Under the pieces are notes generated by a model. It had not been told where the DNA came from. It ran no database searches and saw nothing but the letters and a program-made list of their open reading frames with translations. From IMG/VR virus record IMGVR_UViG_2695420523_000005: DNA of 28,861 bases. One strand, given 5' to 3'. This DNA is from a virus. Taxonomy: Duplodnaviria; Heunggongvirae; Uroviricota; Caudoviricetes. Below are positions 1 through 11,040 of this stretch, one piece after another; the stretch's first letter is position 1, and each line of letters opens with the position of its first letter. Position numbers and translations under genes: made by a program.

Positions 1-575
<575 letters not shown>

Positions 576-588
576 CCTTGATCTCCTG

Positions 589-912
589 TTATTGCAGTCC
601 ATTTTTTACGCCATACGCGGCTAACCCCAAAAGCAGTGCGGTAATAATGAACGACGTTATTTTAGAAACAATGCCGCCAAAGAACCCACTTGAGATGGAA
701 TCTAACCGGTTAAGGAGTTTGTCCAGGTTGGAGTGTTGAATACTATGTTGCGCCGGGGTCATATCACCAAAGTAGGTTTTCAGCTGATCGTTGACCTCCT
801 GGCCAATTTCTTCACGTAGCTCTTTACCTAATTTGCCAACAACCTCCCGAGCAACGATCGCGGCAATACGCTCAACTTGCTCTGTTGTAACGCCCGCCAT
901 CTCGTTCGACAT
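589..912 (-). CDS. Small tail-anchored membrane protein (soluble charged N-terminal part, single C-terminal TM helix); candidate non-canonical holin / lysis-associated protein
   Basis: ORF-track ORF 589..924. ATG at 912 is preceded by GGAGG (plus 916..920 region); hydrophobic stretch ITSFIITALLLGLAAYGV near the C-terminus; sits immediately upstream of the 33..575 gene. Confidence 0.5.
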   Translation of the reverse strand: MSNEMAGVTTEQVERIAAIVAREVVGKLGKELREEIGQEVNDQLKTYFGDMTPAQHSIQHSNLDKLLNRLDSISSGFFGGIVSKITSFIITALLLGLAAYGVKNGLQ

Positions 913-993: not shown

Positions 994-1227
994 TCATTCA
1001 GCATTGCAACGGACTGATGAGAAAGCACCTACTCCTACCCATCGCCAGTTATAGATGCTACCCGCTTTGTATAAGGTATAGTTGTTCACTTTTTTAACAG
1101 CATATATGGGTATGACTGTCTCCTGTCCACCAATGATAGCCTCACCGTAACATATAGGTGTCGGCAATTTCTGGCAGCCAGTAAGAGAGAGAACAACAGC
1201 TATTGTTAGAAATAATCTTTTCATCAT
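994..1227 (-). CDS. Small lipoprotein (signal peptide + lipobox LTGC); Cor/Llp-like receptor-blocking superinfection-exclusion candidate
   Basis: 77 aa, N-terminus MMKRLFLTIAVVLSLTGC is a textbook lipoprotein signal with cysteine at +1. Size and position distal to the tail fiber genes match Cor (phi80/N15/T1/HK022) and Llp (T5). Assignment is by architecture, not sequence identity. Confidence 0.6.
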   Translation of the reverse strand: MMKRLFLTIAVVLSLTGCQKLPTPICYGEAIIGGQETVIPIYAVKKVNNYTLYKAGSIYNWRWVGVGAFSSVRCNAE

Positions 1228-1234
1228 TTACTCA

Positions 1235-1843
1235 TCAGTTATACAGATTTCTATTTATTACCGGTACTCTGCCATTTACGCTAAAACTATGGCCGCCATT
1301 AAGTTGGTTTACGAATATCGAGCTAACAGTATTTCCATATGCCGCATATCCATAAACCATTGTCATGGCTCCGCCCGGTACTGGAACAGCGGACACATTC
1401 GCATATGTTGGGATTATCGCTGGAGGGTAATCAAAAACATGCCCTCCAGAGCTGTTCCACTCCGTATTATTAAGAAAGGTAAATGAAAGTGGGATATTTG
1501 CCGTATTATAGATTTCCTCCCCTTGTGCATTGAAAAAACTCATGCCCCAAGTTTCTTTTTTGGCTATACCTTTCGAAAATACGTATATCGTGGCACTAGA
1601 GTCGCTACCCCGACCTCCGAAACTGTAAATCACCTGGTTATTACGCACTATTCTGTTGGCTATTAATGAAACAGCTTTCGAATAGGCAACAAAAATCATC
1701 GGTGAACGATCTGGAGATATTTGGGTGTTAAACTCTGTCCCGCCAGACAAAGAAACAACCTGCTTTCTCTGAAAAACGATAGGAGACAAAGAAGGAGACA
1801 TCCAGACCTTCCCGTCAGATCGATATATCTTGCTTCCGTACAT
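1235..1843 (-). CDS. Hypothetical protein (Gly/Ser/Asn-rich, probably beta-rich); candidate adhesin, fiber accessory protein or moron
   Basis: 202-aa ORF; ATG at 1843..1841 overlaps the upstream stop (TAATG); no SD; region visibly AT-richer than the tail genes. Confidence 0.55.
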   Translation of the reverse strand: MYGSKIYRSDGKVWMSPSLSPIVFQRKQVVSLSGGTEFNTQISPDRSPMIFVAYSKAVSLIANRIVRNNQVIYSFGGRGSDSSATIYVFSKGIAKKETWGMSFFNAQGEEIYNTANIPLSFTFLNNTEWNSSGGHVFDYPPAIIPTYANVSAVPVPGGAMTMVYGYAAYGNTVSSIFVNQLNGGHSFSVNGRVPVINRNLYN

Positions 1844-2097
1844 TATTTTTGAAAAACCAATATGTTTAAATTGCCACTAGCTCCAGACCACGAAATGGTA
1901 TTTCCAGAAACCGTAAGACTTGTGTATTTTCCATTGGTTACGTCCATTATGTAATAGTCGATTCCCAATCCCGCCTCAACCTCATATGTTCTACTTCCTG
2001 AACCAGAGGGAGTAAAATAATCGAGGTAATAAACAGGGGCCAACGCATCGACCATCTCCTGTCTTGATGGCGACCAAACCTGTGCACCATAGCTCAT
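1843..2097 (-). CDS. Hypothetical protein; translationally coupled to, or frameshift-split from, the downstream 202-aa ORF
   Basis: 84-aa ORF; ATG at 2097 with AAGGA about 8 nt upstream; stop TAA at 1845..1843 overlaps the next start. Confidence 0.5.
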   Translation of the reverse strand: MSYGAQVWSPSRQEMVDALAPVYYLDYFTPSGSGSRTYEVEAGLGIDYYIMDVTNGKYTSLTVSGNTISWSGASGNLNILVFQK

Positions 2098-2187: not shown

Positions 2188-5100
2188 TCAGTTGCTTGTT
2201 GCCCCAACAGTACCGGCAAATTTCAGCCATTGACCTGACGGACTTCTATTACTACGGTAGTGATAAACGAGGATTGCGTTTGTCACTCCACCGTAGTCAG
2301 CTTTATGTGACGTTGTTAAACGAATTGTATAATCACCGTTAGGTAGATTAAAAACTTCGATTATAGATTCTGCTAATTCTACAGCACCAAATCCCGTTAT
2401 ATTGTTGATACTGCCAGCATTGAATCCCATAGCATCGCCAAAGCCAATCCAATAACTTTTGCTAAATGCCCCATTTGATTTAAGGTGGCTAATGAATGTG
2501 GACAAACTCATGCCCATATCCCCACCAGAAACAGAGGAAGTTCGCACAGTCATGCTTGGAAGAGAACTACTCTTCACATAGGAACTGAGAAGGTTTGTTA
2601 CCTCTGTTTTCGTATAAGCATTAAGGTTAGCCGCAGTCAAAGTTATATCGGCAGAGCCATCAAACGCCACACCTGCAATTTTCCTTGCTGTCTGCAATTT
2701 TGTGGCGGTTGCGGCATTACCAGTAGTGTTCTGATTACCAGTTGTATTCACACCAGGGATTGAATCCTTAGCGGTATATACCTGCGCCCACGCTGACCAT
2801 GCTGCACCTGTGTTATCTCTTCGTGAGCGAATGAAAACTGGCGCATGTGCACCGCTCGTACCACTCCAGCCAATAAGCAACTCGCCTTCACCAGCAGCAC
2901 TCGCACCTTTCATGTGCAATACGTTGCCATACGTGGTCGGGTAGCTATTGTTGTACGCCTCATACATTTGAATGCCAGCAGTGCCTTGAGTAGAGCCGCT
3001 TAACGCCGTAACTCGGCCACGAGATACCAATGTATTAATATTGATATCGCCTGAACCATCAAACTTAACACCATTGATGTTTCTCGCTGTTTGCAACTTC
3101 GTAGCTGTTGAAGCATTACCGTTCAAACTACCATTTACGCCACCAGTCACATTTAGTCCATTACCAATTGATACAGCACCGCTGGTATTATTAATTGTAA
3201 TAGGTCGCAAACCGTTCCATGAACCTAATGTGTCTCCTGATGCTGTTAGCAGGAAATATGTGTTCACCCCATCATTACGGATAAAGAACCCAAACTTACC
3301 GTAAGCAATGCGGAAACCATTTGCATATTTTGAAACGATCTCACCAGAAGACGTTAACCCTCCAGATAATGTGCCACCTGAAAGCGGTAATGCTCCTACA
3401 TCAGAAGCTGTTGGTTTGTTTTTAGTGTTATACGCTCTGCGCCATCCTGGTGAATAGGTCGTCCCGTTAAACACATAGACAAACTCCGCATTAGTGAGTG
3501 CGCCAGAGACACCTGTCGTTGTTGCCGTTGTTATACGAATCGTATAATTGTTCGAGCTACTGCCTTTATTAAATACCTCAATAACTGCGCCAGCCAGTGG
3601 AATAATGCCGCATCCTGTTTCGCTGTCTGGTATGGATGCACTATTTGCATACGCCCAGGCACAACGCGCTATCCATGTCTTTGCATTAAAAGCACCATTA
3701 TCTCGTAGCAGAGTCACTAATTGCTCTGTTGTTATTGAAGCTCCATTATCACCTGTTTCAAGCCAACCAGTAGGAGATGCCGGGCAACCTATATTTGCTG
3801 GCGACAAGGCAATATTTGCCGAGCCGTCAAACGACACCCCATTGATAGTACGCGCAGTCTGCAACTTCGTAGCAGTAGCCGCGTTGCCCGTTGTGTTCTG
3901 ATTACCAGTCGTATTAACACCTGGCAAATTAATATTCGCAGTACCATCAAAGCTCACGCCGCCGATAGTTCTTGCCGTCTGAAGTTTCGTAGCAGTTGCA
4001 GCATTACCAGTGGTGTTCTGATTACCCGTAGTGTTTACACCTGGAAGGTTAATATTTGCAGAACCGTCGAAAACAACTCCACCGATAGATCTTGCCGTCT
4101 GCAATTTCGTGGCTGTACTTGCATTACCATTCAATGAACCAGTTAATCCACCTGTAACAGACAACGGACCTGAAACTGTTCCTCCGGTTGTTGGCAGTGC
4201 TCCAATATCTAACGGCGTCGGTTTCTGATGTGTGCTATACATCGTATAAACAACACCATCGGTAACGCTGGAAGGCTTACTCGCTGAATATGTTGGCGAT
4301 GTATAAATAGAAACTGTCGCATTTGCAGTACAATCCCAATGGATATTTACACGAGTCGCATAATTGCCAATCTCAACGTAAATATCATATGTATCGCCGG
4401 ATGTGTTGATCCAGGCGAAATTCGTTAATCCGACAGCTGTACGCTTCCACAAAGCACCTGTAATCCCTTTGGGGTTTCCATTGCCTGCTCGTAGAACCAG
4501 TTCTGAAATGCCTGCCTGATGTGGGGAGCCGACGTTGTAACCAGCGCCACCAATCAATGCGATGTAAACGATGGAACTCGCTTGTGGCATGGTAACCGTA
4601 GCCAGTTTGAACCACCCTGCCCCGCCAGAGAAAGACATCGTTACTGAATTTAAAGTACCAATATCTTTCGGCGTTAATTTGATATCCGCAGTCAGTGCTT
4701 TACCGTTAACTTTTCGGTTAGATGGCACCCTGCTATTCGCATTGTCATTGGCTGCTTTAACTGCTTTTGGCGTTGCGGCCAGCGATTCACTGGTGCTGTC
4801 GACAGCACTGCTAAGTTTCACAACACCTTTAGTTGTAAGGCTTGCGTCTTCCATCGCAACTGCACCGGCAATCTCTTCAGCACGATCAGCAGCAGCTTCC
4901 GCACGGGTCGCAGCGGATTCAGCAGCAGTTTTGCTCTGAGATGCTGCCGTCGCACTGCCTGCCGCCTCTGTTGCTTTCGTGGATGCCGTCGTGGCGCTGC
5001 CCTTCGCTGCTGACGCCTGTCTGGTCGCCTCATCTTTTGAAGCAGACGCCGATGATGCCGATGACGCCGCCGAACTGGCGGACGATGCGGCTGCCGTTTT

Positions 5101-6216
5101 TGAGGATTCTGCACGGGTTTCCGACGCTTTCGCGTTCGTTTCGGATGTCTTCGCTGCGGAAGCAGACCTCGCTGCTGCGCTGGCCTGTTCAGTGGCTTGG
5201 CCAGCCTTCGTTGTGGCAGTTGAAGCAGACGATGCGGCACTTTCTGCCGATTTTCCGGCGGCGGTGGCACTGGCTGAGGCCTGCCCGGCACTTGTTGACG
5301 CGGCACTGGCAGACGACGCAGCCGCTGTTTTTGAGCCTGCCGCAGCCGAGGCGCTCTGTCCCGCTGCCGTTTCAGAAGACCTGGCGTTCGTCTCGGACGT
5401 TTTTGCCGCCTTCGCGGAATTTCCTGCCGCCGTTGCCGAGGAAGCGGCATTACTGGCGCTCGAGGCTGCGCTCGTTTCTGATGATTTCGCTGCCTCTTTT
5501 GAGGCCGCCGCATCCCGGGCTGAGGTGGCAGCTTCTGACGCCTTCGTGGTCGCGGTGGATGCAGAAGTGGCTGCAGATTTTTGTGACGCTGCAGCATTCG
5601 TTTCAGATTTTTTCGCAGCAGTTGCACTCGCACTTGCGGCACTTTGTGAGGATGCCGCAGCGGATGCACTTTGAGACGCTTGAGAGGCTTTTTCTCCAGC
5701 GGCATTGGCGCTTTTTGCTGCTGCGGCAGCACTGGCCGCCGCCTCACGAGCTTTGTCGCCAGCAGCATCAATCGCGTCAGTGTTATTTTTATACCACTCA
5801 ACGTTTTCGTTGTGCTCGTTGACGATCTGCATTAGCGGCTTAACGGTCACTTCTGTACCGTCTTCACGCTCGATTGTCACCTCATCCAGCGCAGTCAACC
5901 AACTGCGTATGGACTTGGAATCAGCCGACATACGCGACATTAGCGCAGTAAAGCGCGCGCTAAACTGTGTTAAGTCGCCTTCATAGGTCGTAATGATTCG
6001 GCACGGAACTTCAGACTGAGTTTCGCCGGTATAAGGTTCTGAGAGAACAATGTTCGTATCACTGGTTACGCGCTTGATCTCATACAGCTTATTGTCGGGG
6101 CCAATGACGATCATCCCCGGCAACACACCATTAGCTGTTACGTTCCAGGCTGTCCCTGCCCCAACCAGAGTATTGCTGCCCTGTGTAAATGTGATAGTAC
6201 CTTCCCTGTACCACAT
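2188..6216 (-). CDS. stf: Side tail fiber protein (lambda Stf-like) with Ala/Ser-rich segment, GNAATATKLQTAR-type repeats and duplicated C-terminal tip-like domain
   Basis: 1342-aa ORF; ATG at 6216 with AAGGAG upstream. Residues ~150-450 (KTSETNAAASQKSAATSASTATTKASEAATSARDAAASKEAAKSSET...) closely match the lambda Stf Ala-rich region as I recall it; at least 5 copies of the N(G/T)NA(A/S)TATKLQTAR motif. Confidence 0.9.
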   Translation of the reverse strand: MWYREGTITFTQGSNTLVGAGTAWNVTANGVLPGMIVIGPDNKLYEIKRVTSDTNIVLSEPYTGETQSEVPCRIITTYEGDLTQFSARFTALMSRMSADSKSIRSWLTALDEVTIEREDGTEVTVKPLMQIVNEHNENVEWYKNNTDAIDAAGDKAREAAASAAAAAKSANAAGEKASQASQSASAAASSQSAASASATAAKKSETNAAASQKSAATSASTATTKASEAATSARDAAASKEAAKSSETSAASSASNAASSATAAGNSAKAAKTSETNARSSETAAGQSASAAAGSKTAAASSASAASTSAGQASASATAAGKSAESAASSASTATTKAGQATEQASAAARSASAAKTSETNAKASETRAESSKTAAASSASSAASSASSASASKDEATRQASAAKGSATTASTKATEAAGSATAASQSKTAAESAATRAEAAADRAEEIAGAVAMEDASLTTKGVVKLSSAVDSTSESLAATPKAVKAANDNANSRVPSNRKVNGKALTADIKLTPKDIGTLNSVTMSFSGGAGWFKLATVTMPQASSIVYIALIGGAGYNVGSPHQAGISELVLRAGNGNPKGITGALWKRTAVGLTNFAWINTSGDTYDIYVEIGNYATRVNIHWDCTANATVSIYTSPTYSASKPSSVTDGVVYTMYSTHQKPTPLDIGALPTTGGTVSGPLSVTGGLTGSLNGNASTATKLQTARSIGGVVFDGSANINLPGVNTTGNQNTTGNAATATKLQTARTIGGVSFDGTANINLPGVNTTGNQNTTGNAATATKLQTARTINGVSFDGSANIALSPANIGCPASPTGWLETGDNGASITTEQLVTLLRDNGAFNAKTWIARCAWAYANSASIPDSETGCGIIPLAGAVIEVFNKGSSSNNYTIRITTATTTGVSGALTNAEFVYVFNGTTYSPGWRRAYNTKNKPTASDVGALPLSGGTLSGGLTSSGEIVSKYANGFRIAYGKFGFFIRNDGVNTYFLLTASGDTLGSWNGLRPITINNTSGAVSIGNGLNVTGGVNGSLNGNASTATKLQTARNINGVKFDGSGDININTLVSRGRVTALSGSTQGTAGIQMYEAYNNSYPTTYGNVLHMKGASAAGEGELLIGWSGTSGAHAPVFIRSRRDNTGAAWSAWAQVYTAKDSIPGVNTTGNQNTTGNAATATKLQTARKIAGVAFDGSADITLTAANLNAYTKTEVTNLLSSYVKSSSLPSMTVRTSSVSGGDMGMSLSTFISHLKSNGAFSKSYWIGFGDAMGFNAGSINNITGFGAVELAESIIEVFNLPNGDYTIRLTTSHKADYGGVTNAILVYHYRSNRSPSGQWLKFAGTVGATSN
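3821..4141 (-). repeat. Three tandem ~120-bp coding repeats in the tail fiber gene, with related copies at ~2668..2760 and ~3051..3133
   Basis: Repeated block ...accatcaaa..acgcc..gatag....gccgtctgcaa.ttcgtagc.gt.gc.gcattacc.gt.gtgttctgattacc.gt.gt.tt.acacctgg... read directly; encodes the GNAATATKLQTAR motif. Confidence 0.8.
4867..5769 (-). repeat. Low-complexity Ala/Ser/Thr-rich coding segment of the tail fiber
   Basis: Protein residues ~150-450 are almost exclusively A/S/T/K/E; this creates long spurious ORFs in other frames on both strands. Confidence 0.85.
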
Positions 6217-6237
6217 GTTGAATATGCTCCTTGATTT

Positions 6238-6258
6238 GGCGGGCTATCCTTGCCCGCC
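6238..6258 (-). promoter_or_regulatory. GC-rich stem-loop between J and the tail fiber with AAGGAUA loop
   Basis: Perfect 7-bp stem ggcgggc/gcccgcc, loop tatcctt; followed on the minus strand by the SD AAGGAG and the fiber ATG at 6216. Confidence 0.5.
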
Positions 6259-6309: not shown

Positions 6310-9300
6310 TCACAGACGGCCAATTCTTACTCGTAAGACGTTGTTATCGTCATAAACGTCAATCCGCTGACCATTTATAACCAATCGCCCATTGCCGCCG
6401 CTATTACCGTTGATCTCAAGCGTTCCATTTTTGCCGAACCGCCATCCAGATCTACCGCTAACAAAATTGGTAGATTGCAGATCGCCTACTTTTGCATTGG
6501 TGATTGTGCCATCCTTGATATACGCTCCATTCATATAGGCGATACTGTTTTCGATAACAAATGGCGTTGTGATCTTCCCGTTAACAGAGTTGACCAAACC
6601 AAACCTGTCCGCCTGAACCAAAAACTGAGATAGCCCAGTGGTGTCAATACCAAGCGCAATACCGGCAACATACTTCTGCCCTCCGCTCGTTGAAGTCTCC
6701 ATTTTCAACGTCCACGCGGTTGACACTTTTTTGTTGGTATCAGCAATAGCTGTTGCCTGCTGTTGAATTGTCGCGGTATTTCCATTCACCTCTGCTTTCA
6801 GAGTATCGATTCGCCCACTCAGAGCATTATCTGCCTGCGTTCTCGCTTTCGTTTCAGTTGTGACCGCCGCGGAAATGTTGGCTGCCGTTTGAGACTCTAA
6901 GTTTGTGATTTGAGTCGCCAATGCAGCATCTTGCTCTGTACGCGTTTTCGTTTCGGTTGCTACAGCCGCTTTAATATCCTCTTTGTATTGAGAGGTCAGC
7001 TTGGTGATCTGAGACGACAACGCCGAGTCAGCATCAGTTCGAGCCTGCGTTTCAACTGCAACGGCCGCACTAATATCTTTCGCTGTCTGTGCTTTTAAAC
7101 TTGAAACCTCTTTTGTTAAAGCGGTATCACCATCTGCACGAGCCGTTGTTTCTCTGGCAAGAGACGCCTTGAGATCATTAGCTTTTGCTGTAAGAGACGT
7201 AATCTGGGTAGACAATGCACTATCGGCATCAGTCCTTGCTTTTGTCTCTACAGCAACCGCTGCGGCAATATCAGTTCCGGTTTGTGCTCGCAGGCTGTTA
7301 ATTTCTCGTGAGAGCGCCTGGTCAGCACTTGCTCTGGCCTCCTGCTCCTGAGTGATGGCAGCGGATATATCACCGTCAACCTTTGACTGAAGCTGGTTTA
7401 TTTGTTTGGCTAACGCAGAGTCCCCGCTTGCTCGGGCCTCCTGCTCACTGCGTATTGCAGCAGAAATATCATCATCAACCTTTGCCTGAAGTTGGGTGAT
7501 CTGGCTTGCCAGAGCCGAATCTTCCGTTGCTCGGGCTTCTTGCTCTTCCTTAATAGCTGCGACGATATCGTTGCTTACTTTCGACTCAAGCTGAGTGATT
7601 TGTGTCGTCAGAGCTTCATCGGCAGATGTACGAGCCTCCTGCTCTGTACTAATCGCCGCGCTGATATCTCCTTCAAACTTAGATTGCAGCTGAGTGACAC
7701 GCTTTGCCAACGCTTCATCGCCATCGGCACGAGCGGTGGACTCTTCCAGAATACTGGCCTTAATGTCTTCGCCAATTTCTACGCGAATTTCCTCAACCTT
7801 CGTGGCCATTGCAGACATATCATCAGCAAAGGTTTTCTGTGTTGTTGCGATCTTCGCGTTATTGACCATCTGCTTGTGCTGGTCTTCATCTTGACGAAGA
7901 GCCAGGTCAATATTTGTTTTGGCCAAAGCCTCAATGTTCGTAGTCAGTTCTGCACTGGCACGATCGACCTCTGCAACCGTCTTTTTCATTTCTTCAACGG
8001 CAGCGGAGCTTTCCTCTACCGTTGACTGTAACACTTCCAGTTGTTTAGCGTTTGCAGCATCACCTTCAACACGAGCCTCGCTTTCCTTAGCAATAAGAGC
8101 CGCCGCTTCATCTCTTGCAGCCTTTATTGCCTCGACTGTATTAGCGAGAGCTTTATCGTGTTCAGATACGGTGTTTTCGATTTCAACAATTGCAGCATCA
8201 GTAGCATCAATTTTTTCAAACGCTTCATTGACCTTGTTAATCGTTGCCGAAACCTCACCTTTAAGCTCGGTTTGTGCGTTCTCCAAAGCATCGCTACGCT
8301 CGTTGAATTTTATTTCAAAACCCGCGAGGTTATCGCTGAACTGCTTATCTAATTCAGCTATATCTTCCTTAACGTCGTTTACCGCCCCCTCTAAAGATTC
8401 GACGCTCTGGTTGATATGCTCATTTAACTCGTCAACTGCTTCTTGAGAGACTTTGCTGTTGATGTCCTCAAGCAGAGCCTGACCAAGCTCGGAAGATGTA
8501 ATTTTGCCAGTCAGGAACGACAGTACATCGCGAGTTGTCGCCTCTGTACCCAAGTTTGAGTTCGGAGGACTTAACATACCTCGCTTGTTCGATGCTCGAA
8601 CCCAGTAATACCACGTTTCGCTATCCCCAAGACCAGCATGTGTAAAGGTGGTGCTTGCAGACTCTGCGATCAGTTTCGCCGTATCCAGATTGTTGGTCTG
8701 GGATGCGTAAACATTAATGTGATCAAGGTCTACCGAATCTGGATTAACCCAATTCAGTATCACATTACGATAGTCTCCAACGGCCGTTAATGACGTTGGG
8801 GCATCAGGCGGTGTCATTGTGCCCAACACCTGATAAACGGTACTGATAATCTCTGTTTTTTTACCGTTGAATGAAACCGCATACAGCTGGAAGTCGTAGC
8901 GTCCATTCTCCGCGACATTAACGATTTCGTATTGCTCTTCGGTTACACGCGCCGATTGCCAGTTCGATACATTGTTTTCATCAGAACGTCGCCAACTGAT
9001 CCAATACTCTGGAGATTTCCCTTCCCATGTTGCAGTCAGTTTTACTGACAGGTTGCCCGGGCTTGAGAGATAAGTCCCTTCAGTGATTTGCAGATTAGAT
9101 GGCTTGGAGTAAGTTGGGTCCAATACCGTCGTATTCTGCGGGATCAGCGTTGCACCATTGTCGATTGCCTCATATTTAGACGGATTGTTCTCAACAGCGG
9201 TGATGTCAAAGCTACCCGACGTTTCCCCCTGTGCGATGTTAACGATGCGAACGCGCATAGGTTCGAGATCTGATTCTGTAATTGTCCAGACACCGTTCAA

Positions 9301-11040
9301 AACAGGCGTTTCCGCTGACGACAGGGCTTTTGAAAACGTAACCTTTGTTATGTTTTCGCCAGTTTCAAGAACATCGCGTTCAACGATTTTGCCTTCCTGA
9401 TTCAATATCCGAATAAAGCTGCCGCTTTTAGCTAACGACACAGGCGCATCGAGAGTGATGCTGTTTTTGGTAAACTCCACAATTCGACCGGAGTTACGTT
9501 TACCTGCACGATATTTGTTCTGAATCAGAACGGTTTCACCAGGCATCAGAAATGAGGCGTCTAAGCCGGCAGTAAATGTAATTACATCCGACTCCATTCT
9601 GGCGGTATACAACAGCCACAAACCAACTCGGTGAGCCTGGCCTCGGCTTGTACATCCAAATGCTACGACTTCTGTTTTACGCTCACCATAACGGCGCATT
9701 GCGTCCTGATCTTCAACGTACTCGATATTTTGCTTATAACCGTCCTCCTTGTTGTTGTAGGTTACGAGCGCAACGGATGGGCGATCTTTACGCGCAGAAC
9801 CTTTATAGGTAAACAGCCCATCTTTGACGTTGGAGTTGGTAAACATCATTACCGGATCTGATGGGCTATCCTGCATGATGTTAACCATGCCACCAGCCCA
9901 AAACACCATGCCGCGGAATGCACCGGCAATATCCTGAATTAATCGGTATGCGTCTTGTCGACTGGTGATCTGCGTATTGATTGCAAAGCGTTTCTCTTTA
10001 CCCCCAAAGCCATCATCGACCTCTTCGTCACAATATCGACCAATCTGGTAGAGCTGGCCGAGGTCAATCATGGATTCCGACACAAATTGCCCAAGACCAT
10101 ACCGAGTATTGGTAAGCAAATCGTAGAGAATCCACGCAGGGTTTGAAGAAGACAACAGCTTAAAAGTACCGTCCCATACGCCGACATAAGTATTGGTGTA
10201 TTCGTTGTAGTTTGACGGTACTCGGATTTTGATACCGCGCACCAAATACGAACGGGAAGGCATTGTGCTACCAAACTGCTCTGAATTGACCTTCAAGCCA
10301 ACAAGAGCAGAGTTAGGGTAGTTCATTGGCGTGTCGACAATCTCACCGATGGAATCAACCCATGTGTCGTTGTAGAGGTACTGGCTACTATTATCATCTG
10401 TAAGACGAATCACCCTAACCTTGTATGCACGACCAGGCTTAGGCAGTTTCAGCTCATAGCTACGGTAATACACGCCGGTTTTCTTTGCCGTTAGCGTGAT
10501 ATCAACGCTTTTCTCACCTTCTGCCACTACATCAGAAAATGTTGCGTCTGCGTTGGCGATCTGGAATTTGTACTTCACCGTAGTGCCATTTGTATCGCCA
10601 GAGCTTTTATCAACGCTACGTAAAGAGGGGAATTTCATGATGACACGAACGCGATCAGCTTCATCGTTATCGATTGAAACCGTAACGTCGTGTGTTTTTT
10701 TAAGCTGAATATTTACGGACTTAGGCGTTTCAACAAAATCAAAACCAGCCATTGGCGTCTGGTCTTGTGAGCCGTCACGAAAATCCCATGTAATACCGCT
10801 GAAGTTGGAAGAGCCATCTTCATTCAAGATCGGTAAATCGTCGATGAAGATCGACTTTGCGCCATTTACCAGGCCACCGATAACCCCCTCGCCAAGAAGG
10901 TCGAGGATGGCTGCCATAGCACGAGAATTGACAGTATCATCAGCTTCAACCGGGGTACGGCTGGAGCTTTTACTTTTCTTGCCACCAGCACCGGCAATAA
11001 GAAGCGGTAATTTTTTCTTCTTGAACTGTTCCATGTCCAA
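6310..11040 (-). CDS. J: Tail tip attachment / host specificity protein J homolog with ~450-aa tandem-repeat insert and short non-lambda C-terminus
   Basis: 1576-aa ORF. Recalled lambda J blocks are conserved (NSALVGLKVNSEQFGS, AFGCTSRGQAHRVGLWL, GQKYVAGIALG...SQFLVQADR). The track start at 11040 is TTG; first ATG is at 11034; AAGGA lies just upstream. Confidence 0.92.
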   Translation of the reverse strand: MDMEQFKKKKLPLLIAGAGGKKSKSSSRTPVEADDTVNSRAMAAILDLLGEGVIGGLVNGAKSIFIDDLPILNEDGSSNFSGITWDFRDGSQDQTPMAGFDFVETPKSVNIQLKKTHDVTVSIDNDEADRVRVIMKFPSLRSVDKSSGDTNGTTVKYKFQIANADATFSDVVAEGEKSVDITLTAKKTGVYYRSYELKLPKPGRAYKVRVIRLTDDNSSQYLYNDTWVDSIGEIVDTPMNYPNSALVGLKVNSEQFGSTMPSRSYLVRGIKIRVPSNYNEYTNTYVGVWDGTFKLLSSSNPAWILYDLLTNTRYGLGQFVSESMIDLGQLYQIGRYCDEEVDDGFGGKEKRFAINTQITSRQDAYRLIQDIAGAFRGMVFWAGGMVNIMQDSPSDPVMMFTNSNVKDGLFTYKGSARKDRPSVALVTYNNKEDGYKQNIEYVEDQDAMRRYGERKTEVVAFGCTSRGQAHRVGLWLLYTARMESDVITFTAGLDASFLMPGETVLIQNKYRAGKRNSGRIVEFTKNSITLDAPVSLAKSGSFIRILNQEGKIVERDVLETGENITKVTFSKALSSAETPVLNGVWTITESDLEPMRVRIVNIAQGETSGSFDITAVENNPSKYEAIDNGATLIPQNTTVLDPTYSKPSNLQITEGTYLSSPGNLSVKLTATWEGKSPEYWISWRRSDENNVSNWQSARVTEEQYEIVNVAENGRYDFQLYAVSFNGKKTEIISTVYQVLGTMTPPDAPTSLTAVGDYRNVILNWVNPDSVDLDHINVYASQTNNLDTAKLIAESASTTFTHAGLGDSETWYYWVRASNKRGMLSPPNSNLGTEATTRDVLSFLTGKITSSELGQALLEDINSKVSQEAVDELNEHINQSVESLEGAVNDVKEDIAELDKQFSDNLAGFEIKFNERSDALENAQTELKGEVSATINKVNEAFEKIDATDAAIVEIENTVSEHDKALANTVEAIKAARDEAAALIAKESEARVEGDAANAKQLEVLQSTVEESSAAVEEMKKTVAEVDRASAELTTNIEALAKTNIDLALRQDEDQHKQMVNNAKIATTQKTFADDMSAMATKVEEIRVEIGEDIKASILEESTARADGDEALAKRVTQLQSKFEGDISAAISTEQEARTSADEALTTQITQLESKVSNDIVAAIKEEQEARATEDSALASQITQLQAKVDDDISAAIRSEQEARASGDSALAKQINQLQSKVDGDISAAITQEQEARASADQALSREINSLRAQTGTDIAAAVAVETKARTDADSALSTQITSLTAKANDLKASLARETTARADGDTALTKEVSSLKAQTAKDISAAVAVETQARTDADSALSSQITKLTSQYKEDIKAAVATETKTRTEQDAALATQITNLESQTAANISAAVTTETKARTQADNALSGRIDTLKAEVNGNTATIQQQATAIADTNKKVSTAWTLKMETSTSGGQKYVAGIALGIDTTGLSQFLVQADRFGLVNSVNGKITTPFVIENSIAYMNGAYIKDGTITNAKVGDLQSTNFVSGRSGWRFGKNGTLEINGNSGGNGRLVINGQRIDVYDDNNVLRVRIGRL
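6790..7760 (-). repeat. About ten tandem 99-bp (33-aa) coding repeats inside the J-like gene
   Basis: Periodicity visible in DNA (gctcgggcctcctgctc-like blocks near 7340, 7440, 7540, 7640) and in protein (DISAAI..EQEARASADEAL..QITQLQSKV repeated). Boundaries approximate. Confidence 0.8.

What the first reader, a model, noticed from the sequence alone, without database searches (positions are those of the whole stretch)
6310..11040. J-like tip protein with a ~10-copy 33-aa tandem repeat insert and without the lambda-type receptor-binding C-terminus
The N-terminal two-thirds match conserved lambda J blocks, but between the conserved core and the C-terminal GQKYVAGIALG...SQFLVQADR block there is a ~970-bp array of 99-bp repeats (6790..7760) encoding an amphipathic repeat DISAAI..EQEARASADEAL..QITQLQSKV, which as I recall lambda J lacks. 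After the conserved C-terminal block the protein ends within ~100 aa, whereas lambda J continues into a ~240-aa LamB-binding domain. Receptor recognition is therefore probably delegated elsewhere (the side fiber or the distal ORFs), and the repeat array may form an extended fibrous spacer whose length could vary by repeat slippage.
Basis: partly seen in the sequence, partly recalled or inferred. Interest (0 to 1): 0.55.

Follow-up and report, generated by a model that had tools for sequence, protein, structure and literature searches.

The report
Phage tail-tip fibre with repeat shaft
This gene encodes the central tail-tip fibre of an E. coli phage-plasmid: a relative of lambda J built like phage T1's fibre, with a stalk lengthened by ten 33-residue repeats and with receptor binding left to small separate proteins encoded nearby, so it is a known design rather than a new one.

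Summary
ORF 6310..11040 (-) encodes a 1576-aa J/TipJ homologue. It has a lambda-like hub (aa 1-835), a proline-free helical shaft (aa 836-1423) that ends in ten 33-aa repeats (aa 1092-1420, window 6781..7767), the PF09327 beta-prism domain (aa 1424-1558) and a short cap. Lambda J has only a ~50-aa helical shaft at this position, and carries about 160-200 more C-terminal residues that include its LamB-binding domain.

The design is not new. Phage T1 gp33 and the F-type pyocin central fibre share the shaft, 33-aa repeats (T1) and the short cap. The window comes from an SSU5-like phage-plasmid found in 228 of 5426 complete E. coli genomes.

Repeat number varies among relatives: 1, 4, 5, 6, 8, 9, 10 and 11 copies. 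The 9- and 11-copy alleles are reciprocal unequal-crossover products. The 10-copy allele predominates (50 of 54 sampled).

Each repeat carries the motif reported for the coiled-coil-to-beta-prism fold switch of F7 pyocin. Whether this shaft switches is inference only.

Interest is moderate to low.

The parts
6310..11040 (-). Central tail fibre / tip attachment protein (gpJ/TipJ family, T1 gp33 type), 1576 codons; probable real start is the ATG at 11034
8536..11040 (-). aa 1-835: conserved hub domains plus FNIII domains; aligns to lambda J 3-835 at 32% identity
6772..8535 (-). aa 836-1423: alpha-helical shaft, an ~11-fold expansion of the lambda J shaft (809-861); aa 840-1420, the part scored, has no Pro, Trp or Cys and is 18% Ala
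   Evidence: for aa 1257-1406, predicted helical with block-mean pLDDT mostly >90
8014..8100 (-). aa 981-1009: degenerate copy of the repeat (ALIAKESEARVEGDAANAKQLEVLQSTVE), conserved in all relatives including the 1-copy alleles
6781..7767 (-). aa 1092-1420: array of ten 33-aa repeats (copy 7 has 32 aa), consensus DISAAIATETEARADADSALAKQITQLQSKVDG
6367..6771 (-). aa 1424-1558: Phage_Tail_Tip (PF09327) beta-prism 'central straight fibre' domain; aligns to lambda J 841-971
6313..6498 (-). aa 1515-1576: short C-terminal cap (...RVRIGRL), overlapping the PF09327 domain above; it occupies the place of the lambda receptor-binding domain and is shared with T1 gp33 and, short of its last ~28 residues, with the F2-pyocin fibre
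2188..6216 (-). Lateral tail fibre, 1342 aa (P1 S / Mu S / T4 gp34-like segments); the N-terminal ~170-250 aa is conserved among relatives while the rest is swapped
1843..2097 (-). orf84: small partner protein of the receptor-binding cassette (phrog_557; same PHROG-style product name as T1 gp32; homologue of SECphi27 gp73 and SSU5_023)
1235..1843 (-). orf202: stand-alone receptor-binding protein candidate (phrog_425; homologue of T1 gp31, SECphi27 gp72 and SSU5_024)
994..1227 (-). Cor superinfection-exclusion lipoprotein, 77 aa, lipobox LTGC

Best explanation
This is the trimeric central tail fibre (gpJ family) of an SSU5-like siphovirus phage-plasmid of E. coli. It is built on the T1 gp33 / F-type-pyocin plan, not the lambda plan.

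The parts, in order:
- The first ~835 residues form the conserved conical tail-tip hub.
- Residues 836-1423 form a very long, probably three-stranded, alpha-helical shaft. Fully helical it would be about 85 nm long (inference from 1.5 A per residue).
- The distal 329 residues of the shaft are ten 33-residue units.
- Residues 1424-1558 form the beta-prism 'central straight fibre'.
- The chain then ends in a short cap, where lambda J has its Ig-like LamB-binding domain.

How receptor binding most likely works:
- The terminal outer-membrane receptor is recognised by a separate protein, orf202, probably together with orf84. This protein is inferred to sit non-covalently on the cap, as proposed for T1-like phages and F-pyocins.
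- Its gene lies in a cassette with a Cor lipoprotein, which would block the same receptor in lysogens. FhuA is the likely receptor by analogy with T1 and N15 (my own knowledge of Cor).
- The 1342-aa lateral fibre presumably mediates first, reversible contact.

How repeat number changes: rarely, by unequal crossing-over between neighbouring units, and always in frame. This sets shaft length in ~5-nm steps.

Inferred, not shown: on receptor binding the units nearest the prism refold from coiled coil into further beta-prism layers, as in F7 pyocin. That would pull the tip to the membrane and open it.
For: Family and domains.

Shaft:
- About 560 aa are extra relative to lambda J.
- AF2 gives one continuous helix for aa 1258-1406, with block-mean pLDDT mostly above 90.
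- The shaft has no proline.

Same plan in T1 gp33 and the F2-pyocin fibre: the alignment runs through the repeats, the PF09327 domain and the cap to the last residues (E 2e-31 and 7e-24). T1 gp33 has its own 33-aa repeats. Foldseek places the C-terminal model on lambda gpJ fibre and SU10 tip fibre structures.

Copy number:
- 50 of 54 sampled E. coli alleles have the same length. One is +99 nt and one is -99 nt.
- The 11-copy allele holds a copy-5N/copy-4C hybrid. The 9-copy allele holds the reciprocal copy-4N/copy-5C hybrid. Two other 9-copy alleles have different junctions.
- Copies 4 and 5 share the longest in-register exact tract, 12 nt.
- Relatives carry 1, 4, 5, 6, 8 or 9 copies.

Delegated receptor binding:
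- Cor is phrog_1119, E 2e-30.
- T1 has J -> gp32 -> gp31 -> cor.
- The orf202-family profile hits T1 gp31 at 53 bits. The window Cor hits T1 Cor at E 4e-9. orf84 hits SECphi27 gp73 at E 1e-8.
- The gene pair lies immediately next to the J 3' end in L012, L013 and SECphi27.
- Relatives instead carry C-terminal extensions of J. Citrobacter P0075 aligns to lambda J 827-1131. This matches the either/or rule in PMC8594841.

Fold-switch motif:
- SxSxxMxxLxS, in either direction, occurs 45 times in aa 840-1423, against 16.2 +/- 3.8 in shuffles. There are two clean instances per unit.
- Each unit has an E9-R13-D17 ladder.
- The motif and the switch are described in PMC12874032. A small-scale helix-to-sheet change in the lambda shaft is described in PMC11101478.
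Against: - Nothing here is experimental for SSU5-like phages.
- Attachment of orf202/orf84 to the J cap rests on synteny and literature, not on a tested interaction.
- In this window the cassette lies 4.2 kb from J, behind the lateral fibre gene.
- Phage Cyrano has a 95%-identical J and fibre but lacks the whole cassette. So the cap works without it, or Cyrano uses another route.
- The fold switch is shown only for F7 pyocin, in a preprint.
- The AF2 run was a monomer with a shallow alignment. It gave helix only.
- The helical (3.67-residue) hydrophobic period of the unit is not significant on its own (permutation p 0.21). Only the 2.06-residue period is (p 0.012).
- The motif count is inflated because the copies share ancestry.
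- The part of the alignment to F2 pyocin that covers the coil has high compositional bias.
Confidence: 0.75

Rival explanations
1. The repeat shaft is only a static, rigid spacer. It sets how far the cap and its receptor-binding protein reach beyond the tail tip, for example through O-antigen or capsule. It does not change conformation, and tip opening is triggered as in lambda without large-scale refolding.
For: AF2 predicts a confident continuous helix and nothing else. Shaft length differs widely among relatives, from one copy to a 3662-aa allele. That is easier to tolerate for a passive spacer than for a tuned spring. The 3.67-residue period is not significant on its own.
Against: The units carry the motif tied to switching in F7 pyocin, and a significant beta-like 2-residue alternation. 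The region aligns with the F2-pyocin coil that is contiguous with the prism. Even lambda's short shaft partly converts to sheet on LamB binding (PMC11101478).
Confidence: 0.35
2. The J cap itself is the terminal receptor binder, for example for LPS core. The orf84/orf202/cor cassette is an accessory or moron module that is not attached to J. It might belong to the lateral fibre or act only in the lysogen.
For: Cyrano keeps a near-identical J and fibre without the cassette. The cassette is not adjacent to J in this window. L014 and L015 show the gene pair with no J within the few kb available. SSU5 is reported to use LPS core (my recollection of Kim et al. 2012/2014; not checked here).
Against: The cap sequence is nearly invariant from E. 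coli to Pseudomonas (...NNVLRVR[IL]G..L). That fits an adaptor surface, not a specificity determinant. orf202 has the fold of a solved stand-alone receptor-binding protein and is homologous to T1 gp31, next to T1 J. A Cor gene travels with it.
Confidence: 0.15
3. The repeats are docking sites for the lateral fibres. Each unit, or each Gly-containing unit (copies 1, 4 and 7), binds a fibre trimer, so copy number sets the number or position of side fibres.
For: F-pyocin side fibres dock on an acidic, Gly-kinked stretch of the central coil (PMC13455828 and PMC12874032). HMMER aligns G1304 of copy 7 (ARADGDTAL) with G955 of the F2-pyocin fibre. The fibre's N-terminal ~170-250 aa is conserved among relatives.
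Against: Alleles with one copy and with no Gly-containing unit (SSU5, the 1229-aa alleles) still sit next to fibre genes with the same N-terminus. The fibre N-terminus shows no sequence match to the pyocin side fibre. The alignment in that stretch has low confidence.
Confidence: 0.12
4. The array is an assembly or annotation artefact.
For: Many database entries for this protein are partial and break inside the shaft.
Against: The same 4731-nt gene is found at 99% identity or more in 16 complete E. coli plasmids and across 164 at >=80% coverage. The frame is open with no stops. Every copy keeps the same nine invariant residues although synonymous sites are saturated.
Confidence: 0.01

Closest known systems
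Phage T1 central fibre protein gp33 (PDB 9L9P chain S), with its gp32-gp31-cor locus
   Same: J-type hub; a helical shaft built of 33-aa units (T1: IREVIATETEALSREIDQLKAQIGDDIQASLTD); the PF09327 prism; the same short cap aligned to the last residues. Small protein + ~200-230-aa protein + Cor cassette homologous to orf84/orf202/cor.
   Different: T1 gp33 has 1172 aa with about 3-4 units, against 1576 aa with 10 here. In T1 the cassette directly follows J, whereas here a 1342-aa lateral fibre gene lies between them. T1 is a small lytic phage (Drexlerviridae), whereas this is a ~110-kb phage-plasmid.
F-type pyocin central fibre (PA0641 / F2 fibre PDB 25VF; F7 central fibre protein, PMC12874032)
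   Same: Hub + coiled-coil shaft + beta-prism, with no built-in receptor-binding domain. The last ~4.5 units and the prism align at E 7e-24. Each unit carries the SxSxxMxxLxS motif. Small proteins are proposed to cap the C-terminus.
   Different: The pyocin coil is ~163-178 aa and is not described as a 33-aa array. Here the shaft is ~590 aa. The pyocin tip proteins (PyoF11/12, PA0642) could not be linked to orf84/orf202 by sequence; only both sets show Pam1-like fold hits (PMC12874032). The fold switch is demonstrated there and is untested here.
Lambda gpJ (PDB 8IYK, 8XCJ)
   Same: Hub and FNIII domains (32% identity over 840 aa). A shaft followed by the central straight fibre domain, in the same order.
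   Different: The lambda shaft is ~50 aa and has no repeat units. Lambda has ~160-200 further residues with the Ig-like LamB-binding domain. The protein scores 529 bits against a cut-off of 1950 for NCBIfam lambda_TipJ.
Salmonella phage SSU5 gp20 and the pHCM2 / pMT1 J proteins
   Same: Same phage-plasmid lineage and the same gene order. The shaft and PF09327 domain are homologous throughout.
   Different: SSU5 has 5 units (1385 aa). pHCM2 has 4 and Y. pestis has 6. The last two replace the short cap with a ~170-aa extension ending ...LVFKA.

Membership tests
gpJ / TipJ tail-tip protein family (Pfam architecture) | FNIII-A_GpJ, Phage-tail_3 and fn3 domains in the N-terminal hub, in lambda J order | tested here: met
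   (E 1e-29, 2e-35, 2e-5); one search aligns aa 22-861 to lambda J 3-836
gpJ / TipJ tail-tip protein family (Pfam architecture) | Gene position after the M, L, K and I homologues and the tape measure gene | tested here: met
   Phage_min_tail, Phage_tail_L, JAB+NlpC/P60, tail assembly protein I and tape measure lie upstream on the same strand
Lambda J proper (NCBIfam NF049904 lambda_TipJ) | Whole-protein score above the curated cut-off (1950 bits) | tested here: not met
   529.5 bits
Lambda J proper (NCBIfam NF049904 lambda_TipJ) | C-terminal Ig-like receptor-binding domain after the central straight fibre | tested here: not met
   the protein ends 18 aa after PF09327, and there is no alignment to lambda J beyond residue 971. 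A Citrobacter relative (P0075) does have this domain.
T1 gp33 / F-pyocin type central fibre (shaft + prism + short cap, separate receptor-binding protein) | Long alpha-helical shaft between FNIII-2 and the PF09327 prism | tested here: met
   helix over model residues 2-150, block-mean pLDDT mostly >90; no Pro; aligns with the F2-pyocin coil 927-1084. Prediction only.
T1 gp33 / F-pyocin type central fibre (shaft + prism + short cap, separate receptor-binding protein) | Short conserved C-terminal cap ending ...RV.IG.L | tested here: met
   aligned to T1 gp33 up to residue 1168 of 1172; the same ending in Pseudomonas, Cronobacter and E. coli relatives.
T1 gp33 / F-pyocin type central fibre (shaft + prism + short cap, separate receptor-binding protein) | Separate receptor-binding protein locus with a cognate superinfection-exclusion lipoprotein | tested here: met
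   The cassette is present but displaced behind the lateral fibre gene.
T1 gp33 / F-pyocin type central fibre (shaft + prism + short cap, separate receptor-binding protein) | Physical attachment of the receptor-binding protein to the cap; trimeric state of the shaft | not testable with these tools
   Needs a complex prediction for trimers, or an experiment.
Fold-switching central fibres (F7 pyocin, PMC12874032) | SxSxxMxxLxS pattern per ~11-residue strand, with Arg four residues from an acidic M position | tested here: met
   45 matches against 16.2 +/- 3.8 in shuffles; A4..I6..E9..A12.[AT]14 reversed and A19.[AST]21..I24..L27.[SA]29 forward; R13 four residues from E9 and D17
Fold-switching central fibres (F7 pyocin, PMC12874032) | Both coiled-coil and beta-prism conformations obtained (structure, or deep versus shallow alignment predictions of the trimer) | tested here: inconclusive
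   monomer AF2 with 18 sequences gave helix only. Trimer and alternative-conformation runs are not available.
Stand-alone receptor-binding proteins of small siphophages (Oekolampad / Rtp44 type; T1 gp31 family), for orf202 | Fold similarity to a solved receptor-binding protein and sequence homology to the T1 locus | tested here: met

The most novel reading that the evidence does not exclude
The 33-residue unit is a self-contained module of a fold-switching 'spring'. In this reading each unit is nine helical turns (~5 nm) in the loaded coiled coil and one beta-hairpin layer (~1 nm) in the discharged prism. Evolution would then tune reach and stored energy by adding or removing whole units. The natural series of alleles with 1, 5, 9, 10 and 11 units in otherwise near-identical phage-plasmids would be a ready-made test of how the length of the switching region affects tail-tip opening in non-contractile phages.
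Probability: 0.3. Interest if true: 0.6.

Novelty: new member of a known kind. Interest (0 to 1): 0.35.

Why it matters
It shows that SSU5-like phage-plasmids, which are common in E. coli and sometimes carry resistance genes, use a T1-type host-recognition system: a J protein with a short cap, a separate receptor-binding protein and Cor. Their terminal receptor could therefore be predicted from the small cassette at 994..2097 rather than from J. That is useful for host-range prediction and engineering.

The repeat array also matters for a current question. If the coiled-coil-to-prism switch reported for F7 pyocin is general, the naturally occurring 1-to-11-unit alleles give a direct way to ask whether the length of the switching region matters.

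Otherwise the gene is an ordinary, already annotated tail tip fibre.

Tried and rejected
- DNA-level repeat finders see only 2-4 copies, because the array is conserved at protein level only. I used a profile of the units instead.
- The large protein database returned no relative longer than ~1275 aa, so full-length close relatives were missing and the top hits were fragments. I measured copy number on complete E. coli plasmids and phage records instead.
- A direct link between orf84/orf202 and the pyocin tip proteins: a Pseudomonas phage with the same J cap (L011) has a ~105-aa and a 229-aa gene right after J, with similar N-terminal YG motifs. The orf202-family profile scores it only 7 bits (E 0.002 among 8 sequences). 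Homology to PyoF12 is therefore not shown.
- PDB sequence searches with orf84 and orf202 found nothing. Only fold comparison worked.
- The lateral fibre N-terminus shows no sequence match to the F-pyocin side fibre, so docking on the shaft remains speculation.
- The database names 'outer membrane protein' and 'membrane associated protein' for orf84 and orf202 were rejected. Neither has a signal peptide or a hydrophobic segment, and orf202 has a receptor-binding-protein fold.
- The hendecad (3.67-residue) periodicity of the unit is not significant by column permutation, so I do not claim it.
- Assembly artefact was rejected.
Full report
**What is there**

The minus-strand ORF 6310..11040 is intact and encodes 1576 codons from a TTG. 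An ATG two codons in (11034), 10 nt after an AAGGA, is the likelier start and matches the SSU5 annotation. Pfam finds FNIII-A_GpJ (aa 103-237), Phage-tail_3 (359-522), fn3 (746-825) and Phage_Tail_Tip PF09327 (1424-1558). PHROGs give 'central tail fiber J'. The genes upstream on the same strand are the I, K, L and M homologues and a 1529-aa tape measure. This is therefore the J gene of a lambda-like tail module.

**The repeat**

Printed in rows of 33, aa 1092-1420 form ten head-to-tail units, one of 32 aa.
- A profile built from the units finds each one at E 1e-16 to 1e-21, plus one degenerate unit at aa 981-1009.
- Nine columns are invariant: D1, I2, A4, E9, R13, D17, A19, L20 and L27.
- Mean pairwise identity is 48% for protein and 52% for DNA. 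Third codon positions are only 32% identical. This is why TRF reports just 2.2 copies.
- The units are therefore old duplicates, each held by purifying selection, not a recent expansion.
- The scored part of the shaft, aa 840-1420, has no Pro, Trp or Cys and is 18% Ala.
- AF2 on aa 1257-1576 with an 18-sequence alignment gives one continuous helix for the last five units, with block-mean pLDDT mostly above 90. Beta strands follow for the PF09327 part and the cap.
- Foldseek places that model on the lambda gpJ central fibre (8XCJ, 8XCI) and the SU10 tip fibre.

**Comparison with lambda J**

- Query 22-860 aligns to lambda J 3-835 at 32% identity.
- Query 1421-1509 (BLAST) or 1421-1548 (HMM) aligns to lambda J 841-931 or 841-971.
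- About 560 residues are extra here, and the repeat profile finds nothing in lambda J.
- Lambda J runs on to residue 1132. This protein ends 97 aa after SQFLVQADR, against 231 aa in lambda.
Lambda J already has a short alpha-helical shaft (809-861) between FNIII-2 and the beta-prism 'central straight fibre', followed by the Ig-like receptor-binding domain (PMC11101478). The 'insert' is thus an ~11-fold expansion of an existing domain.

**Where it comes from and how common it is**

The gene is 95% identical to that of Escherichia phage Cyrano. It matches 228 of 5426 complete E. coli genomes, always on plasmids of ~100-120 kb, where it is annotated 'phage tail tip fiber protein' or 'TipJ family'. 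The window is an SSU5-like phage-plasmid.

**It is a known design**

The PDB sequence search shows three solved tail tips with the same plan.
- T1 gp33 (9L9P_S) aligns through repeat units, PF09327 and the cap to residue 1168 of 1172 (E 2e-31).
- The F2-pyocin fibre (25VF) aligns from its coiled coil (927) to 1193 of 1204 (E 7e-24).
- So does a 'J-like tail tip protein gp24'.
- T1 gp33 has its own 33-aa units. Its unresolved C-terminal 350 aa were predicted to protrude ~370 A (PMC11945409).

Three 2026 papers describe the F-pyocin central fibre as hub + trimeric coiled coil + beta-prism, with side fibres docked on a kinked acidic stretch of the coil and small proteins capping the end (PMC12874032, PMC13455828, 10.64898/2026.02.24.707460).

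**Copy number**

- Among 54 sampled E. coli alleles covering the whole shaft, 50 have exactly the query's length. One is +99 nt, one is -99 nt, one carries an IS and one differs by 1 nt.
- The 11-unit allele (CUPF06) contains a hybrid of unit 5 (N-terminal part) and unit 4 (C-terminal part). The 9-unit allele (AH02) contains the reciprocal hybrid.
- Two further 9-unit alleles (P0001, P0008) have other junctions.
- Units 4 and 5 share the longest in-register exact tract, 12 nt.
- More distant relatives: PhiR41_1 has 8 units, an O104:H4 plasmid 9, SSU5 5, Cronobacter 5-6, Y. pestis 6, pHCM2 4, and a large group of E. coli plasmids 1 (1228-1229 aa).
- A 3662-aa allele on an O9:H10 plasmid has none of these units, but ~2650 other residues at the same position.
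- Shaft length is thus highly evolvable, changes by whole units, and is nevertheless stable within the main E. coli lineage.

**The C-terminus is a swappable module**

All relatives share the sequence up to ...AYIKDGTITNAKIG.
- The window, SSU5, T1, Pseudomonas phages and pyocins continue with the ~60-aa cap ending ...RVR[IL]G..L.
- pHCM2 and Y. pestis continue with ~170 aa ending ...LVFKA.
- A Citrobacter allele with five units continues with a lambda-type end that aligns to lambda J 827-1131 at 38% identity.

This is the either/or rule described for small siphophages. Either dedicated receptor-binding proteins, encoded downstream of gpJ with a superinfection-exclusion gene, sit on the J-like protein, or GpJ carries a C-terminal extension (PMC8594841).

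**The delegated receptor binder**

Downstream of J lie the 1342-aa lateral fibre (2188..6216), orf84 (1843..2097), orf202 (1235..1843) and a 77-aa lipoprotein (994..1227).
- The lipoprotein is Cor (phrog_1119, E 2e-30).
- The three small genes form a cassette that SSU5 shares. Cyrano lacks exactly this cassette, although its J and fibre are ~95% identical.
- T1 has J -> gp32 (101 aa) -> gp31 (229 aa) -> cor.
- A profile of the orf202 family hits T1 gp31 at 53 bits. The window Cor hits T1 Cor at E 4e-9. orf84 hits SECphi27 gp73 at E 1e-8.
- The gene pair lies at the 3' end of J in L012, L013 and SECphi27, with a Cor-like lipoprotein in the last two.

Shown: orf202 belongs to the T1 gp31 family and has the fold of a stand-alone receptor-binding protein. 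Inferred: it sits on the J cap, and the receptor is the one Cor blocks. FhuA in T1, N15 and phi80 is my own knowledge and was not tested here.

**Possible fold switch**

PMC12874032 reports that 163 residues of the F7 coiled coil refold into a beta-prism on receptor binding. It gives a per-strand pattern SxSxxMxxLxS, with Arg four residues from acidic M positions.
- Each unit here carries the pattern twice: reversed at positions 4-14 and forward at positions 19-29. Each unit also has an E9-R13-D17 ladder.
- The pattern occurs 45 times in the shaft, against 16.2 +/- 3.8 in composition-matched shuffles. The copies are not independent, however.
- The unit's hydrophobicity has a significant 2.06-residue alternation (p 0.012). 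Its 3.67-residue period is not significant (p 0.21).

This is compatible with a sequence that can be either helix or strand, but it is not proof. The AF2 monomer gave helix only.

**Verdict**

The object is a T1/F-pyocin-type central fibre in a common, already annotated phage-plasmid, so it is a new member of a known kind. The points of some interest are the size of the array, its documented whole-unit polymorphism, and its fit to the newly described fold-switch motif.

Noticed in passing
window 994..2097 (-): Three-gene cassette orf84 / orf202 / Cor lipoprotein, homologous to T1 gp32-gp31-cor. It is present in SSU5 and exactly absent from phage Cyrano, although the flanking J, fibre and holin genes are 91-98% identical. 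This is a presence/absence polymorphism of a receptor-binding module.
   Followed up: yes
L010 (NZ_CP062852.1 35480-46468), E. coli O9:H10 plasmid: A 3662-aa allele of the same J gene. It has the same hub and the same PF09327 end, but ~2650 residues between them, with helical-type Pfam hits and an ILEI domain at aa 2813-2890, and none of the 33-aa units.
   Followed up: partly
P0032, P0037, P0075, P0038 (relatives from Y. pestis, S. Typhi pHCM2, Citrobacter): After the shared ...AYIKDGTITNAKIG the C-terminus is exchanged. It is either a ~170-aa extension ending LVFKA or a lambda-type end ending ...VVKKSTSGIVIS. Repeat shafts therefore also occur with a built-in receptor-binding domain.
   Followed up: partly
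Stx-converting phages (e.g. VT2-Sakai, 933W-like) and ~51-kb Drexlerviridae: orf202 homologues (24-31% identity over the full length) occur in 280 phage records. These include about 100 short-tailed Stx-converting phages, where they are annotated 'membrane associated protein'.
   Followed up: no
window 3857..4129: A 120-nt tandem repeat (2.3 copies, 77% matches) inside the lateral fibre gene. It is also visible as off-diagonal matches to Cyrano, SSU5 and the O104:H4 plasmid.
   Followed up: no
window ~6232..6252 (-), in the J-fibre spacer: A perfect 7-bp inverted repeat GGCGGGC-aaggata-GCCCGCC just upstream of the fibre's ribosome-binding site, with no T-run. It could be a stabilising or attenuating hairpin.
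   Followed up: no
H27 (NZ_CP035843.1) and H57 (NZ_CP029421.1): In two E. coli plasmids the J gene is interrupted by insertion sequences: an IS100-family element and ISEc52.
   Followed up: no
window 1..89 and ORF 33..602 (-): All alignments to Cyrano, SSU5, PhiR41_1 and the O104:H4 plasmid start at window position 90. The endolysin-like ORF here is 189 aa, against 230 aa annotated in Cyrano, with an unrelated-looking C-terminal tail. This suggests a breakpoint near the window's left end.
   Followed up: no
(P0080-P0118): Dozens of database entries for this protein are partial and end inside the upstream shaft (aa ~950-1090). No relative longer than ~1275 aa was returned, so public protein sets under-represent full-length alleles.
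   Followed up: no
window aa 1043-1062 (TNIDLALRQDEDQHKQ) and aa 986-997 (EARVEGDAANAK): Two non-repeat shaft segments are conserved in every relative, including the 1-unit alleles. They are acidic and one contains Gly, which recalls the acidic kink where F-pyocin side fibres dock. This is pure speculation.
   Followed up: no
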